DNA of 49,493 bases from a virus. Positions 1-49,493 of this stretch are shown here, one piece after another. The number at the start of each line of letters is the position of its first letter. Position 1 is the first letter of the stretch. Position numbers and translations under genes: made by a program. Location of the stretch: the IMG/VR virus record IMGVR_UViG_3300035102_000435; one strand, 5' to 3'. The notes beneath the pieces were generated by a model, which made no database searches, was not told the origin of the DNA, and worked only from the letters and a program-made list of their open reading frames with translations.

Positions 1-127
1 AGTCAAAAGAGAAAAGAATTTTATCAGAAATATAAAGATCAGGAAGAAAGCGAAGGAAATTCAGGAGGTGGAGTACTTTGAAAAAATCAGAAATGGTTAA
101 AATGCTTAGTTTTCTTGACAATTATTA
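1..127. repeat. Terminal direct repeat, identical to 49367..49493 (circular or circularly permuted genome; likely assembly overlap)
   Basis: Read directly: the first 127 nt of the window match the last 127 nt exactly. Confidence 0.9.
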
Positions 128-650
128 TAATGCAAAATTTGAATACCCTAAATCAGATGATGATGAAACAGCAGCTCTAACAGAGACCTGGTTTCTATTC
201 TTGGCTGAATATGATTACAATGTAGCTTCTACAGCTTTGAAAAAGTTAGTTATAGATAAGCCAACCTGGCCACCGACTCCGGGAGAATTAGTAAAACAAA
301 TTCAAAAGATGCTGACTAAAAATGATCCGGTTATGAAGATCAGTGGACCGGAAGCCTGGGAAAAAGTTAGAAATGCTATCAGTAAACACAGTTGGTTTTA
401 TCACCCCGAAAAAGTAAAAGAAGTACTACCAGAACCAGTTTTGAAAGCTGCAGAAGTGACAGGTTTAAGTTTGATAGCAAATAACCCAGATAGTTTTACA
501 ATGAACCGTTTTATTAAGACTTATGAACAGATCAAAGAACACGAAAAAGAAAGAAAGTTACTACCGGGAAGTGTCAGAAAAGATATTGAAAGAATAGAAA
601 GAGCAGAAGTAAAACAACTTGCAGAGAGGATAAGTGATAATAATGAGTAA
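78..650 (+). CDS. Hypothetical replication-module protein (possible helicase-loader-like)
   Basis: 190-aa ORF; SD-like GGAGGTGG about 6 nt upstream of the TTG start, which overlaps the stop of the upstream initiator gene. Function guessed from position only. Confidence 0.45.
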   Translation: MKKSEMVKMLSFLDNYYNAKFEYPKSDDDETAALTETWFLFLAEYDYNVASTALKKLVIDKPTWPPTPGELVKQIQKMLTKNDPVMKISGPEAWEKVRNAISKHSWFYHPEKVKEVLPEPVLKAAEVTGLSLIANNPDSFTMNRFIKTYEQIKEHEKERKLLPGSVRKDIERIERAEVKQLAERISDNNE

Positions 651-42647: not shown

Positions 42648-44189
42648 CTATGGTCTGTAATCTTCAATATTAATTGTGGATTCAAAACGGTACGCCCCAC
42701 CTCCACCATCAACATCCACAATATAATCTATGGTTATATTGTTTTCATATACGGTGACTTTTTTAACGAAAGTTTTGACGATCCTTCGCTGATCTTCAAG
42801 GCTTTCGTTTTTAATATTTCTATACTTCATTAATTCTTGAACAATTCTTTCTTTTGATGGAGAATTATTCTCGGCTTGAAACCTTGCTTCCTCAAGGTAC
42901 ATTTCATAATCTGCTTTTTCATTTTCAAGAGAGTTTAATTTTTCATTCATTGAAGGCTGATATAAACCTTCTGCTACTGCTTCAGTAATGTTATCAATTT
43001 TTTTCTGAACTTCTTTTAAATGTTTTTCAAATCTTTTAATGTCAGAATTTATTTCTTTATTTTCAGTTTTAGCAAATTTGTATACCTTGGCAGCTATATT
43101 TTTGATTGCAGCAGGCGAAAATAATTCTTCTATCATATTATCTAAAACTGCACCTTCTACAAAATCTTTACTTATTGAAGGCATGTCACAATCTCTTTTT
43201 CTCTTTCTGGTAGAACATTCATAAGAAGTGTAGACAGTTTTATTTTTTCCAGCAATTCTTCTATTTCCAACCATTGCTCCCTCGCATTTTCCACACTTAA
43301 TTAAACCGGCAAGAATATAGATTTCTTTAGCTTTATTATTAACAGACTTTTTATTACCTTCCATTCTTTTTTTCACCTTCCTCCAGGTATGATCATCAAT
43401 TATTCTTGGCATTCCACCTTCAATTCTAATAATTTTCTTTTTATCTTTTGACTTATGGTGATTTCTCTTTCCAGCCTTTTTACTTACAGATCTGTTAAAA
43501 ATATAAACGCCCCGATACTTTTCATTAATCAAAATATCATGTAAACTAGGCCTGCTAAAATTACCACCAGTCTGAGTCTTGAAACCCCTCTTTTTAAGCT
43601 CGTCAATTATTTCTGAATAACCATGGCCATCGGCATACATTTCAAAAATTAACTTCACACTTTTAGCCTGCTCTTCATTGATAATGTAAGTCTTATCTTC
43701 TGCAACATCGAACCCAAGGGGTGCTAAACCTCCATTATGTTTGCAATTTAAAGCGTTCTCTTTCATTCCTTTTTTAACTTCTCTGCGTAAATTAGCAGAA
43801 TAATATTCATTATACCCTTCCAATACAGATTCTAATATTATAGATTCAGGACTACCATCCAAATTTTCTAATGCAGAAATAACTTCGACACCATTCTCTC
43901 TTAATTTTCTTTTATATACAGCGGAATCATATCTATTTCTAGCAAAACGATCTAGTTTATGAACAATCACAAAATCAAACAAATCTTTTTTACTGTCGCT
44001 GACCATGTCTAAAAAAGCTGGGCGATCAGAAGTTGTAGCTGATTTCGCTTTATCAGTATAAATTTTATTTATTTTTATATTATTTTTGGCTGCGTACTCC
44101 TTAATTTCTCTAACCTGAGCATCTATTGATTCTTCTCTTTGGTTACTGGAGCTAAAACGTGCATAAATTGCAGCTGTTGGCTTACTCAT
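42648..44189 (-). CDS. Large serine recombinase (integrase)
   Basis: 513 aa; N-terminal resolvase-type catalytic region (AAIYARFSSSNQ with the catalytic Ser), recombinase domain, Cys-rich zinc ribbon and coiled-coil C-terminus; RBS AGGAGG. Confidence 0.9.
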   Translation of the reverse strand: MSKPTAAIYARFSSSNQREESIDAQVREIKEYAAKNNIKINKIYTDKAKSATTSDRPAFLDMVSDSKKDLFDFVIVHKLDRFARNRYDSAVYKRKLRENGVEVISALENLDGSPESIILESVLEGYNEYYSANLRREVKKGMKENALNCKHNGGLAPLGFDVAEDKTYIINEEQAKSVKLIFEMYADGHGYSEIIDELKKRGFKTQTGGNFSRPSLHDILINEKYRGVYIFNRSVSKKAGKRNHHKSKDKKKIIRIEGGMPRIIDDHTWRKVKKRMEGNKKSVNNKAKEIYILAGLIKCGKCEGAMVGNRRIAGKNKTVYTSYECSTRKRKRDCDMPSISKDFVEGAVLDNMIEELFSPAAIKNIAAKVYKFAKTENKEINSDIKRFEKHLKEVQKKIDNITEAVAEGLYQPSMNEKLNSLENEKADYEMYLEEARFQAENNSPSKERIVQELMKYRNIKNESLEDQRRIVKTFVKKVTVYENNITIDYIVDVDGGGGAYRFESTINIEDYRP

Positions 44190-44205: not shown

Positions 44206-44877
44206 TTATAACTTATGCATAACTTCTATAGCTTTACCAATAATTCTAGCCTGATCATTTTTTATAATGATATTTTCATAATTAGGATTCTCAGGTTGCA
44301 AAACCCATGAACCGTTAGTTTTTATTACTCTTTTTAAAGTTGCTTCATCAGAATTAACCATTACTACTGCTATCTCATTATTTTCAACTGTACTCTGACG
44401 TCTGATCAAAACAAGATCCCCCTCGTTAATACCTGCATTTATCATACTGTCACCTTTGACTTTAAGAAAGAAATATTGACCATTTGAAACCCTATCAGCT
44501 GGTACTTTTTTGTAGAATAAAATATTTTGTTCAGCCAAAACTGGCTGCCCTGCAGAAATTGTTCCGATAACCGGAATAGATTCGACTTCTTTTTTTATGA
44601 TGTCATCATAATTATATTTAGATTTTGTTTCTTTTAACTCATTAACTTTTCCAGATATGTAACCCGCTTTAATCATCAGAATGCCATCCGCAATATTTAA
44701 AGCTTGCTCTAATTTTTTGATAATTTGTGGAGATGGAGGGTTTTTAGTTTTGCCATTTAATATTCTAGAAATGTAAGAGTGATCTATATCAGCCTGTCTT
44801 CCCAACTCTCTGATAGAACTTATTGCCGAATCATCAATTTCTTTTTGAAGAGTTTCTCTAAAATCTTTTATACTCAT
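44206..44877 (-). CDS. CI-like repressor (HTH plus S24 LexA-type peptidase domain)
   Basis: 223 aa; N-terminal HTH and C-terminal S24 motifs (GDSM...KRV); divergent from a Cro-like gene. Confidence 0.85.
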   Translation of the reverse strand: MSIKDFRETLQKEIDDSAISSIRELGRQADIDHSYISRILNGKTKNPPSPQIIKKLEQALNIADGILMIKAGYISGKVNELKETKSKYNYDDIIKKEVESIPVIGTISAGQPVLAEQNILFYKKVPADRVSNGQYFFLKVKGDSMINAGINEGDLVLIRRQSTVENNEIAVVMVNSDEATLKRVIKTNGSWVLQPENPNYENIIIKNDQARIIGKAIEVMHKL

Positions 44878-45408: not shown

Positions 45409-45569
45409 TGTCTCTGGCAATAAAAAGAGTAACTGTTGATAGAAAAACTGGCACTGTTACAAATAAAGAAATTATAGATAATAATCCAGATATAGAGGAG
45501 AGTGAAGTTTATTCTCCTTTTTCAAAAATGGTATATGACAAAATTATGAGTCAGGAGGTAAACAATTAA
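45408..45569 (+). CDS. Hypothetical small protein
   Basis: 53-aa ORF translated by hand; stop-start overlaps on both sides. Confidence 0.3.
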   Translation: MSLAIKRVTVDRKTGTVTNKEIIDNNPDIEESEVYSPFSKMVYDKIMSQEVNN

Positions 45570-46612
45570 TGGATCAATTGACAGAGAGTAAATTTAATTA
45601 TAGCCAACTCCAACCAGAGATGGCTAATTTTTTGAGAGAAAAAGAAACAAATATGAAAGAAATTGTAGGCAGTGCTTACACCAGAATCGGAAAAGAATTA
45701 AAAGATGCTCAAGATAAACTTTCTCAAAATGGATATGGCTGTTTTCAAGAATGGTATGAAAGCTTAGGTTTCAAAAAAGATAAAGTTTATAGAATGATAA
45801 AAAGATATAATTTGATTCTCGCAAATAGCGAGAAACAAGATTTGATAGAAGATTTGCCTTTAAGTTTGAGTTATGAAATAGCAAAAAATTCAGCTGATCC
45901 GGAACTTAAGCAGCAGGTCCTGGACGGAGACATAACTTCCCATAAGGAATTTAAAAAACTTAAAAAAGAGAAAGAAAAACTTGAAGAGGAAAAAGAGAGA
46001 CTAAAAGAGAACAACCAGTTTTTAGAAGAAATCAGAGATGGTCTTATTAAAGAAAGGGACCAGGAACGCCAGAAAAAAATTAATGTTTACAAACAAATTA
46101 AGGAGTTGAAAGAAAAAGAACCTGAAACTATAGAAAAAGAAGTTATTCCTGATGATTATAAAAAAATGAAAGAACAGAATCGAAAAATGAAACAGCAGCT
46201 GCAGCAGAAGCAAAATGAATTGGACAGATTATCTAATGATATTAAGGAATTAAGTAAAGAAAAAGAGATTATCGAAGAAAAAGCAAATCTCAATGAGAAA
46301 GAAGCGGAAGAATATAAGCAGTTGAAAAATAAAATTAAGAATCTCAAAGAACAGAAAAATAGTATTCACAGAAAATTCGAAGCTGTTGGTAGTGTAGCTG
46401 ATTTTGTAACCGAAATAGAAAGTTTTTTGCAGAACAAATTAGCTCCAGTTAAATATTCCAGAGCATTAATTGAAGCAAGCGACGATGAAATTGTAGTCAG
46501 AAATGTAAAAGAAATAGTGGGAAAAGTCAGAGAGTGGTGTAATGAAGTTGAGGATCTTCTGCCGGAGAAGAAAAATTATATTGATGCTGAGGTGATTGAT
46601 AGTGAGCAATGA
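45569..46612 (+). CDS. Hypothetical early protein with long coiled coil
   Basis: 347-aa ORF; Lys/Glu-rich coiled-coil centre. Confidence 0.45.
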   Translation: MDQLTESKFNYSQLQPEMANFLREKETNMKEIVGSAYTRIGKELKDAQDKLSQNGYGCFQEWYESLGFKKDKVYRMIKRYNLILANSEKQDLIEDLPLSLSYEIAKNSADPELKQQVLDGDITSHKEFKKLKKEKEKLEEEKERLKENNQFLEEIRDGLIKERDQERQKKINVYKQIKELKEKEPETIEKEVIPDDYKKMKEQNRKMKQQLQQKQNELDRLSNDIKELSKEKEIIEEKANLNEKEAEEYKQLKNKIKNLKEQKNSIHRKFEAVGSVADFVTEIESFLQNKLAPVKYSRALIEASDDEIVVRNVKEIVGKVREWCNEVEDLLPEKKNYIDAEVIDSEQ

Positions 46613-48505: not shown

Positions 48506-49447
48506 GTGGCTGGATACTTCAAACTCTATCGAGATATATTTGAAAGCAGCATATGGATGCAGCCAGTTGATTTAAGATTATTTATATACCTAATTGGACA
48601 GGCCCGCTATAAAGAAGAACCAAACACCAAATATAAAGCTTATGGAATCATTATTAAACGCGGGCAGTTCCTCAGGTCCTATAGAAAAATAAGAGATGAT
48701 CTTGAGTATTTTGAGAACAATGCTCTTAAGCATTATAGCCTTTCAGTAATCAAACGTTCGGTGGATAGATTGGTAGAACAAGAAAGAATAGAAATTGAAC
48801 AAACTAAGCTTGGAACACTCTTTACAGTCGTTAATTACCGGCAGTATCAGGATTATCAAGAAGATAACAAAGAGCTTGGAACGGACTTGGAACAGGGTTG
48901 GAACGGAGTTGGAACACCTGCGGAACAATACAGTAAGAAGGGGAAAGAAGGGGAAAGAAGGGAGAAAGAAAAACGTTCGGACTCTGAAAGTCCGAATTCT
49001 CTCTCTGAAAAAGAAGAATATGAACCTAAATATGGTGAAGAAAGTATTCCCTATAAAGCAGCTAAATATTTAAGGGGAAGAATTTTAGAAAATAATAAAA
49101 GGCAGCCGGTTCCTGATCCAAACCCTGAAGACTTAGAAGATTGGGCTATTGAATTAGAAAGATTAAATAGATTAGGCCCTAAAGGAAAAAGAAACGCTGG
49201 ATATAGCTGGGAAGAGATAAGAAATATAATGGACTGGTGCCAGGAAGATGAGTTCTGGAGTGGTAACATTTGTTCAGCTCCAACCTTCAGGGACCAAATA
49301 ACTAAATTAGAAAATCAAATGAGAAGAGATTTGAATAATAATAAGAAAAATAGTTCTAAAAAGAAAAGTCAAAAGAGAAAAGAATTTTATCAGAAATATA
49401 AAGATCAGGAAGAAAGCGAAGGAAATTCAGGAGGTGGAGTACTTTGA
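48506..49447 (+). CDS. Putative replication initiator/replisome organiser
   Basis: 313 aa; N-terminal DNA-binding-like domain, low-complexity linker whose DNA carries iteron-like repeats, C-terminal domain with YSWEEIRNIMDWCQ-type sequence. A two-domain initiator with the origin inside the gene is the lambda O / SPP1 G38P pattern. Confidence 0.55.
   Translation: MAGYFKLYRDIFESSIWMQPVDLRLFIYLIGQARYKEEPNTKYKAYGIIIKRGQFLRSYRKIRDDLEYFENNALKHYSLSVIKRSVDRLVEQERIEIEQTKLGTLFTVVNYRQYQDYQEDNKELGTDLEQGWNGVGTPAEQYSKKGKEGERREKEKRSDSESPNSLSEKEEYEPKYGEESIPYKAAKYLRGRILENNKRQPVPDPNPEDLEDWAIELERLNRLGPKGKRNAGYSWEEIRNIMDWCQEDEFWSGNICSAPTFRDQITKLENQMRRDLNNNKKNSSKKKSQKRKEFYQKYKDQEESEGNSGGGVL
48876..48926 (+). repeat. 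Iteron array (candidate replication origin)
   Basis: TTGGAAC at 48876, 48887, 48898 and 48909 (11-bp spacing) plus GGAAC at 48922; followed by GAAGGGGAAA tandem repeats (48938..48968) and an 8-bp-stem inverted repeat (48976..48996). Confidence 0.55.
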
Positions 49448-49493
49448 AAAAATCAGAAATGGTTAAAATGCTTAGTTTTCTTGACAATTATTA
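49367..49493. repeat. Terminal direct repeat, identical to 1..127
   Basis: Exact 127-nt identity with the window start. Confidence 0.9.

What the first reader, a model, noticed from the sequence alone, without database searches (positions are those of the whole stretch)
48876..48996. Iteron array inside the replication initiator gene (candidate origin)
Four TTGGAAC copies at exact 11-bp spacing plus a fifth GGAAC, then GAAGGGGAAA tandem repeats and an 8-bp-stem inverted repeat, all within the low-complexity linker of the initiator ORF. A helical-turn-phased iteron array inside the initiator gene is the classic lambda O-type origin layout.
Basis: partly seen in the sequence, partly recalled or inferred. 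Interest (0 to 1): 0.55.

Follow-up and report, generated by a model that had tools for sequence, protein, structure and literature searches.

The report
Phage replication origin inside initiator gene
The repeats are real and are most likely the replication origin of a new temperate phage, built like the proven origin (oriL) inside the initiator gene of Bacillus phage SPP1, so this is a well-supported but fairly ordinary example of a known design.

Summary
Five GGAAC cores, four of them TTGGAAC, sit at exact 11-bp spacing at 48876-48926. This is the only phased repeat chain in the 49.5-kb window and no shuffle reached it. A 10-bp-periodic homopurine tract and an 8-bp hairpin follow. All lie in DNA encoding the disordered linker (aa 119-170) of a 313-aa replisome-organizer protein.

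The 7-mer is read in all three frames, so the repeat is kept at the DNA level, not the peptide level. Homologues of the N-terminal winged-helix domain carry 3-8 GAAC cores at 11-bp phase at the same spot: 26 of 34 distinct DNA loci and 97 of 104 database proteins. This holds whatever C-terminal domain is attached.

The N-domain is homologous to that of SPP1 G38P (hhalign 97%, E=2e-11). SPP1's 11-bp repeats occupy the same position, inside the 356-bp oriL fragment shown to suffice for replication in vitro. The next gene encodes a G39P-like helicase loader.

Two parts of the finding hold up less well. The hairpin is no more than chance. The tract after the iterons is purine-rich but not AT-rich, unlike most relatives.

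Verdict: a new member of a known kind (SPP1 oriL / lambda ori-in-gene). Origin function is inferred, not shown.

The parts
48506..49447 (+). Replisome-organizer / initiator gene (313 aa). The N-terminal winged-helix domain is aa 1-118 (nt 48506-48859), the disordered linker is aa 119-170 (nt 48860-49015), and the helical C-terminal domain is aa 171-305.
48876..48926 (+). Iteron array: TTGGAAC x4 plus GGAAC, five cores at exact 11-bp spacing, all in one orientation. They are read in three different frames (LGT / LEQ / WN / VGT / AEQ).
   Evidence: Cores are invariant and spacers variable in relatives. The feature is family-wide. It is the positional equivalent of the SPP1 oriL repeats.
48807..48816 (+). 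Outlying AGCTTGGAAC copy, 66 bp (6 x 11) upstream of the array, inside the codons for the conserved LGT of the wing (LGTLFTVVNY). It is a possible distal initiator site.
   Evidence: D15. The Gly codon is GGA in 28 of 29 distinct sequences (28 loci) against a 34% background, and the Thr codon is ACR in 29 of 29. The distance to the array is 66-68 bp in 22 of 26 loci, and otherwise larger by 11 or 22 bp.
48930..48976 (+). Homopurine (GA-rich) tract with a 10-bp periodic unit AAGAAGGGGA x3.5. It occupies the place where most relatives and SPP1 have an A+T-rich tract.
   Evidence: It has 41 of 42 purines, the unique maximum in the window, but it is not low in duplex stability (more stable than 72-88% of 40-bp windows). 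Relatives have 75-88% A+T at this position.
48976..48996 (.). 8-bp-stem hairpin TTCGGACT/AGTCCGAA. It is probably fortuitous.
   Evidence: Present. No excess over chance. Broken by a synonymous change in L002-L006 and absent in Pony.
78..650 (+). The next gene on the circular genome is a G39P-like helicase loader. Its first 50 nt also appear at 49444-49493, because the window ends overlap by 127 nt.
   Evidence: Pfam PF11417 Inhibitor_G39P, E=3.3e-14. Terminal 127-nt identity.

Best explanation
This is the phage's origin of replication, embedded in the gene of its own initiator. The proposed mechanism has four steps. (1) The N-terminal winged-helix domain of the 313-aa replisome organizer binds the five same-orientation GGAAC cores, which sit one per 11 bp on roughly one face of the helix. 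The conserved GGAAC 66 bp upstream may be a sixth site. Together they form a nucleoprotein complex. (2) This complex strains and opens the adjacent DNA. (3) The C-terminal domain recruits the G39P-like loader encoded by the next gene. (4) The loader delivers a replicative helicase, presumably the host's, because no phage helicase gene is seen. The element sits in the DNA that encodes the disordered inter-domain linker, where the protein tolerates almost any sequence. Shown here: the repeats exist, they are far beyond chance, they are conserved at the DNA level, they travel with the N-terminal domain across the family, and they are the positional homologue of the experimentally defined SPP1 oriL. 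Inferred: binding by the initiator, origin firing, the site of unwinding, and the use of a host helicase.
For: The array is unique in the window and beyond chance. The same 7-mer is read in all three frames, so the conservation is not a peptide repeat. In 5 IMG/VR relatives (75-76% aa identity) and in phage Pony (51% in the N-domain, unrelated C-domain) the cores are invariant while the 4-6-nt spacers vary. An N-domain-based scan of GTDB genomes gave 39 prophage loci. Counting these with the window, Pony and three IMG/VR relatives, 26 of 34 distinct loci have 3-8 GAAC cores at exactly 11 bp directly after the domain, usually followed by a tract of 75-88% A+T. Of 104 database homologues, 97 show the peptide footprint of at least 3 phased GAAC cores in the linker and none show it elsewhere. 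The iteron type follows the N-domain and not the C-domain. Proteins with the window-like C-domain but a PF04492 or PF09681 N-domain carry different repeats. Sub-clades with a divergent N-domain carry GTAAAC or GTTACAGCACC repeats at the same 11-bp period. The N-domain is a winged helix and is homologous to G38P residues 1-119. SPP1 has five 11-bp-phased repeats plus an A-rich tract at the identical position (L047 539-640). These lie inside the StyI-HindIII 356-bp fragment (L047 402-758), which PMC5737612 shows to be sufficient for G38P/G39P/G40P-dependent theta replication. A G39P-like loader gene follows the initiator gene.
Against: No experiment exists for this phage or its clade. The tract next to the iterons is not A+T-rich or thermodynamically weak in this clade (57.5% A+T against 66% for the genome), so a canonical unwinding element is missing. 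The window's C-terminal domain is not PF09524. No G40P-like helicase gene and no second (oriR-like) array were found. GC skew gives no independent support. Eight of the 34 loci lack a phased GAAC array; seven of these have other repeat types in its place, and L021 has no obvious repeat.
Confidence: 0.8

Rival explanations
1. The array is bound by the initiator but does not fire. It would serve mainly as an autoregulatory operator or transcription roadblock within the initiator's own gene, or as a fork-pausing site like SPP1 oriR, with replication starting elsewhere.
For: In SPP1, G38P also binds a second, non-initiating site, oriR. The window lacks an A+T-rich unwinding tract next to the array.
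Against: Only one array exists in the window, so nothing else is available for a G38P-type initiator to start from. The position corresponds to SPP1 oriL, the firing origin, not to oriR.
Confidence: 0.1
2. The conserved DNA at the domain boundary is chiefly a recombination junction. It would be a short shared sequence that lets phages swap N- and C-terminal initiator modules, with no direct role in initiation.
For: The same N-domain plus array is joined to at least four kinds of C-terminal domain. L048 and L049 share identical DNA from the end of the linker onward but have different N-domains and repeats.
Against: This does not explain the exact 11-bp phasing, the invariant cores with variable spacers, the co-variation of core sequence with N-domain sub-clade, or the homology to a proven origin. 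Module exchange is more likely a by-product.
Confidence: 0.05
3. The repeats are only a low-complexity or repetitive peptide linker, so the DNA periodicity is a side effect of the protein sequence.
For: The region encodes a disordered, compositionally biased linker.
Against: An 11-nt period cannot encode a peptide repeat. The 7-mer is translated as LGT, LEQ, WN, VGT and AEQ. The only residues conserved in the linker across the family are exactly those forced by GAAC in rotating frames (N133, T137, E140 are invariant).
Confidence: 0.02

Closest known systems
Bacillus phage SPP1 oriL within gene 38 (replisome organizer G38P, loader G39P, helicase G40P)
   Same: The N-terminal domain is homologous (hhalign 97.3%, E=2.4e-11). 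Direct repeats with an 11-bp period begin immediately after the conserved (V)VNYxx(Y/W)Q(G/D)(F/Y) end of that domain, inside the initiator gene. A purine/A-rich tract follows on the coding strand. The next gene is a G39P-family loader. The protein has no AAA+ domain.
   Different: The core sequence differs: GGAAC here against GAAACGACAC / AAAAAGACAC in SPP1. The window's downstream tract is GA-rich, not A+T-rich. The C-terminal domain is not PF09524; there is only a weak pairwise hit, E=0.003. No G40P-type helicase gene and no oriR-like second site were found. This phage is temperate, whereas SPP1 is lytic.
Bacteriophage lambda ori within gene O (lambdoid O/P system)
   Same: The origin lies in the middle of the initiator gene, in the linker between a DNA-binding N-domain and a loader-recruiting C-domain, with iterons followed by a strand-biased tract (PMC7466680). 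The window's C-terminal half gives weak PHROG hits to 'replication initiation O-like' families (phrog_391 E=6e-8, phrog_277 E=2e-4).
   Different: There is no PF04492 match. By my own recollection, lambda iterons are about 18-19 bp with internal dyad symmetry and about 20-bp spacing, bound by O dimers. Here the cores are 5-7 bp, asymmetric and 11 bp apart. The loader is G39P-like, not P-like. A true O-type relative (L048) shows palindromic GTACTCAAATTGGAGTAC repeats instead.
Bacillus phage Pony gp37 (annotated 'replication protein / DnaD-like helicase loader') and prophage homologues in Bacillus, Paenibacillus, Listeria, Enterococcus and Clostridium
   Same: They have the same N-domain (44-67% identity), the same GGAAC/GAAC 11-bp array at the same position, and the same embedded upstream GGAAC.
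   Different: Most have an AATAATAAGAATG... A+T-rich tract after the array and other C-terminal domains (PF07261, PF09524 or none). None of these origins appears to have been described in the searchable literature.

Membership tests
SPP1 G38P/oriL-type origin-in-initiator-gene module | Initiator N-terminal (origin-binding) domain homologous to that of G38P | tested here: met
   hhalign of the 28-sequence alignment A4 against G38P gives probability 97.3%, E=2.4e-11, colinear over G38P residues 1-119. The shallower profile A3 gave E=7e-4.
SPP1 G38P/oriL-type origin-in-initiator-gene module | Array of direct repeats inside the initiator gene, directly 3' of the N-domain coding part | tested here: met
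   The window has five cores at 48876-48926. SPP1 has five 11-bp units at L047 539-593, within the 356-bp oriL fragment.
SPP1 G38P/oriL-type origin-in-initiator-gene module | Adjacent A+T-rich DNA unwinding element | tested here: not met
   The 40 nt after the array are 57.5% A+T against 66% genome-wide, and are more stable than 72-88% of windows. The feature is met in most other family members (75-88% A+T).
SPP1 G38P/oriL-type origin-in-initiator-gene module | C-terminal domain of Pfam PF09524 (Phg_2220_C) | tested here: not met
   The window protein has no Pfam hit, whereas G38P hits PF09524 at E=2e-20. There is only a short pairwise similarity, E=0.003.
SPP1 G38P/oriL-type origin-in-initiator-gene module | G39P-family helicase loader encoded immediately downstream | tested here: met
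   Window 78-650 matches PF11417 at E=3.3e-14. The same is true in relative L002.
SPP1 G38P/oriL-type origin-in-initiator-gene module | Phage-encoded DnaB-family helicase (G40P) | tested here: not met
   No ORF of helicase size follows the loader. The ORFs after it give no helicase Pfam hit. Not every ORF in the window was scanned.
SPP1 G38P/oriL-type origin-in-initiator-gene module | Specific binding of the initiator to the repeats, and initiator-dependent replication of the fragment | not testable with these tools
   This needs EMSA or footprinting and a plasmid replication assay.
Lambda O / ori-lambda | Initiator with a Phage_rep_O (PF04492) N-terminal domain | tested here: not met
   No Pfam hit even at E<=1.
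Lambda O / ori-lambda | Iterons with internal dyad symmetry, bound by dimers | tested here: not met
   The GGAAC cores are asymmetric and all in one orientation. By contrast the PF04492-type relative L048 has palindromic repeats.
Lambda O / ori-lambda | [quoted passage not shown] | tested here: met
   The array lies in the codons for the disordered linker, aa 119-170. The lambda layout is taken from PMC7466680.

The most novel reading that the evidence does not exclude
In this clade the usual A+T-rich unwinding element has been replaced by a 47-bp GA homopurine tract that is the most purine-rich stretch in the genome. A synonymously conserved GGAAC also sits six helical turns upstream, inside the wing codons. 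Together these could mean that the origin opens by a non-canonical route. One option is wrapping between the distal site and the array combined with a supercoil-driven non-B (triplex-like) transition. Another is initiator binding to the purine single strand, rather than simple melting of an AT tract.
Probability: 0.12. Interest if true: 0.5.

Novelty: new member of a known kind. Interest (0 to 1): 0.33.

Why it matters
The result gives a confident, testable origin annotation for an uncultured temperate Firmicute phage. It also links a large, Pfam-unannotated family of prophage 'DnaD-like' proteins (over 100 database clusters across Bacillus, Paenibacillus, Listeria, Enterococcus and Clostridia) to the experimentally dissected SPP1 G38P/oriL system, with a simple recognisable signature: GAAC every 11 bp directly after the ...VNYxxYQ motif. 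That signature can be used to annotate origins in prophages, to design phage-derived replicons for Gram-positive hosts, and to explain the apparent 'conserved residues' in a disordered linker, which are in fact a footprint of a DNA element. It does not change how such origins are thought to work.

Tried and rejected
- GC and cumulative skew rise monotonically with transcription direction and give no origin signal.
- Pfam and NCBIfam gave no hit for the initiator.
- Sequence searches of the PDB gave nothing significant.
- The hairpin as a functional element was rejected.
- The homopurine tract as an easily melted unwinding element was rejected on nearest-neighbour stability.
- No second, oriR-like array was found.
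It worked with the N-domain alignment A3.
- Literature searches for prior descriptions of this iteron family found nothing specific. That library omits many subscription papers, so absence is weak evidence.
- Megablast of the structural region against INPHARED found no match, so the phage is not a deposited isolate.
- Assigning individual recognition residues to iteron variants was attempted by alignment. It only resolves sub-clade-level co-variation.

Full report
**1. What is in the sequence**

The window ends overlap by 127 nt, so it is a circular assembly of a phage genome of about 49.37 kb. The genome carries a serine recombinase and an S24/HTH repressor on the minus strand. Nearly all other genes are on the plus strand. 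There is no nucleotide match in INPHARED.

ORF 48506-49447 (+) encodes a 313-aa protein. Inside it, TTGGAAC occurs at 48876, 48887, 48898 and 48909, and GGAAC occurs at 48922, so five cores sit exactly 11 bp apart. A further AGCTTGGAAC lies at 48807-48816, 66 bp upstream (D15). After the array comes AAGAAGGGGA x3.5 (48935-48970) within a tract of 41/42 purines, the most purine-rich stretch in the window. A perfect 8-bp hairpin follows at 48976-48996.

**2. Is it more than chance?**

Yes for the array. GGAAC x5 at period 11 is the only phased chain of 3 or more copies of any 5-7-mer at periods 8-14 in the window, and 0 of 200 Markov shuffles reached it. The pattern GGAACN6GGAAC gives 4 exact hits, all here, and 0 of 100 shuffles reached the observed count.

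No for the hairpin. The window has nine perfect 8-bp hairpins against 9.25 expected. In all five close relatives a synonymous AGT>AGC change introduces an A.C mismatch into the stem.

**3. DNA-level, not peptide-level**

An 11-nt period rotates the reading frame. The same 7-mer is translated as L-G-T, L-E-Q, (G)-W-N, V-G-T and A-E-Q. AlphaFold2, run with a 51-sequence alignment, gives a confident N-domain (aa 1-118), a confident helical C-domain (aa 171-305) and a disordered linker (aa 119-170, pLDDT<50). The linker corresponds to nt 48860-49015, which is exactly the stretch holding all the repeats. In protein alignments, the only conserved linker residues across the family (N133, T137 and E140 are invariant; E129 is nearly so) are those forced by GAAC in rotating frames.

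**4. Comparative test**

- Close relatives. Five IMG/VR relatives (75-76% aa identity) and Bacillus phage Pony were aligned. Pony is 51% identical in the N-domain and has a different C-domain. All (T)GGAAC cores are invariant and in register, while the spacers differ.
- Distant relatives. A scan of one genome per GTDB species with an N-domain profile returned 39 prophage loci, from Bacillus, Paenibacillus, Halobacillus, Sporosarcina, Listeria, Enterococcus, Clostridium and others. Counting these with the window, Pony and three IMG/VR relatives, 26 of 34 distinct loci carry 3-8 GAAC cores at exactly 11 bp immediately after the domain. The most common number is five. In most of these loci a tract of 75-88% A+T follows (AATAATAAGAATG...).
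- Variant iterons. The remaining loci mostly carry other repeats at the same place and with the same 11-bp period: GTTACAGCACC x3 in L007, and GTAAAC-type repeats in L023, L027, L028, L031 and L036. These loci form distinct N-domain sub-clades.
- Protein footprint. Of 104 database homologues with the domain, 97 have the peptide footprint of at least 3 phased GAAC cores in the 60 aa after it. None have it elsewhere in the protein.
- Domain dependence. The N-domain plus array is combined with several different C-terminal domains (PF07261, PF09524, the window type, or none). Conversely, proteins with the window-type C-domain but a PF04492 or PF09681 N-domain carry quite different repeats: palindromic GTACTCAAATTGGAGTAC x3 in one case and GAACTA x7 in the other.

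The repeats therefore belong with the N-terminal domain.

**5. What the protein is**

- PHROG 2514 'DnaD-like helicase loader', E=8e-44. There are weaker hits to 'replisome organizer' and, for the C-terminal half, 'replication initiation O-like' families.
- No Pfam, NCBIfam or PDB sequence hits.
- A 28-sequence profile aligns colinearly with residues 1-119 of SPP1 G38P at 97.3% probability, E=2.4e-11. The KRG(Q/E)...S.R and VNYxx(Y/W)QGF motifs are shared.
- The next gene (window 78-650) is a G39P-family helicase loader (PF11417, E=3e-14).

**6. Link to an experimentally defined origin**

In SPP1, gene 38 continues directly after VNYEKWQGF... with five 11-bp-phased units: GAAACGACAGA, GAAACGACACG, AAAAAGACACG, AAAAAGACACA and GAAACGGATAA (L047 539-593). 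An A-rich tract follows. These units lie inside the StyI(402)-HindIII(758) fragment, which is exactly 356 bp.

PMC5737612 states that oriL is embedded in gene 38 and consists of iterons ('AB boxes') bound by G38P plus an adjacent A+T-rich unwinding element. It also states that the 356-bp HindIII-StyI fragment is necessary and sufficient for G38P/G39P/G40P-dependent theta replication in vitro. PMC6316719 gives a concordant account. The window's array is therefore the positional and architectural homologue of a proven origin. The general ori-in-initiator-gene layout is also that of lambda (PMC7466680), but lambda is an analogue here, not a relative (see the membership table).

**7. Mechanism, and which steps are inferred**

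- Shown: the repeats exist and are statistically significant, they are constrained at the DNA level, they are co-inherited with the N-domain, and the module is homologous to the SPP1 one.
- Inferred from SPP1 and lambda: N-domains bind the cores, one per helical turn, and form a nucleoprotein complex. The neighbouring DNA opens. The C-domain recruits the G39P-like loader, which loads a helicase.
- The helicase is likely the host's, because no helicase-sized ORF is present.

**8. What does not fit**

In this clade the tract after the array is GA-rich rather than A+T-rich. It is 57.5% A+T against 66% genome-wide, and it is more stable than 72-88% of 40-bp windows. The weakest duplex nearby is at 49060-49100 and 49300-49390. 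Where unwinding occurs is therefore open. No oriR-like second array exists. GC skew is uninformative.

**9. An extra observation**

The Gly codon of the conserved LGT(LFTVVNY) motif is GGA in 28 of 29 distinct sequences (28 loci), against a 34% GGA background in the same genes. The Thr codon is ACR in 29 of 29. The one exception, L007, is the locus whose iterons are not GAAC-type. The resulting GGAAC(R) lies 66-68 bp before the array in 22 of 26 loci, and otherwise 11 or 22 bp further. This suggests a conserved distal site about six helical turns away. The loci are phylogenetically related, so the raw count overstates independence.

**10. Verdict**

It is a new member of a known kind. For a specialist it is useful but unsurprising, so interest is modest. 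No description of this GGAAC iteron family was found in the searchable literature, but the principle is textbook.

Noticed in passing
window 1-127 and 49367-49493: The first and last 127 nt are identical. The window is therefore a circularly closed assembly of a complete temperate phage genome of about 49.37 kb. It has a serine recombinase at 42648-44189(-) and an S24/HTH CI-like repressor at 44206-44877(-). It has no nucleotide match in INPHARED, and its large terminase is about 50% identical to those of Exiguobacterium, Roseburia and Faecalibacterium phages.
   Followed up: partly
window 78-650 and the rest of the window: A G39P-family helicase loader is encoded, but no ORF of DnaB/G40P size or annotation is present. 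The loader presumably acts on the host replicative helicase, unlike in SPP1.
   Followed up: partly
window 48807-48816; the LGT codons in L001-L044: The Gly codon of the conserved LGTLFTVVNY motif is GGA in 28 of 29 distinct sequences (28 loci) against a 34% background, and the Thr codon is always ACR. This creates a conserved GGAAC(R) 66-68 bp upstream of the array (or 11 or 22 bp further). The only exception, L007, has non-GAAC iterons.
   Followed up: yes
L048 1822-1940 and L049 1300-1390: Two metagenomic initiators with the window-type C-domain but different N-domains (PF04492 and PF09681) share identical DNA from the end of the linker onward and have different iterons. This marks a recent recombination junction in the linker, and the iterons travel with the N-domain.
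   Followed up: partly
L008-L014 (Bacillus sp. WMMC1349; contig NZ_JABJUQ010000008.1): The same initiator locus occurs seven times in this genome. Four of the copies are on one 88.5-kb contig at about 20.4-kb spacing. This looks like a concatemer or tandem assembly of a roughly 20-kb element, possibly a satellite or a plasmid-like prophage.
   Followed up: no
window 48930-48976: This is the most purine-rich stretch in the window (41 of 42 purines) and it replaces the A+T-rich tract found after the iterons in most relatives. It is not thermodynamically weak. Its role is unexplained.
   Followed up: partly
window 45569-46612: A 347-aa protein rich in charged (K/E) residues lies upstream of the replication module. 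It matches PHROG 1733 (unknown function, E=4e-59). A short DNA stretch (about 45707-45831) is 76-81% identical to hypothetical genes of Streptococcus thermophilus phages.
   Followed up: no
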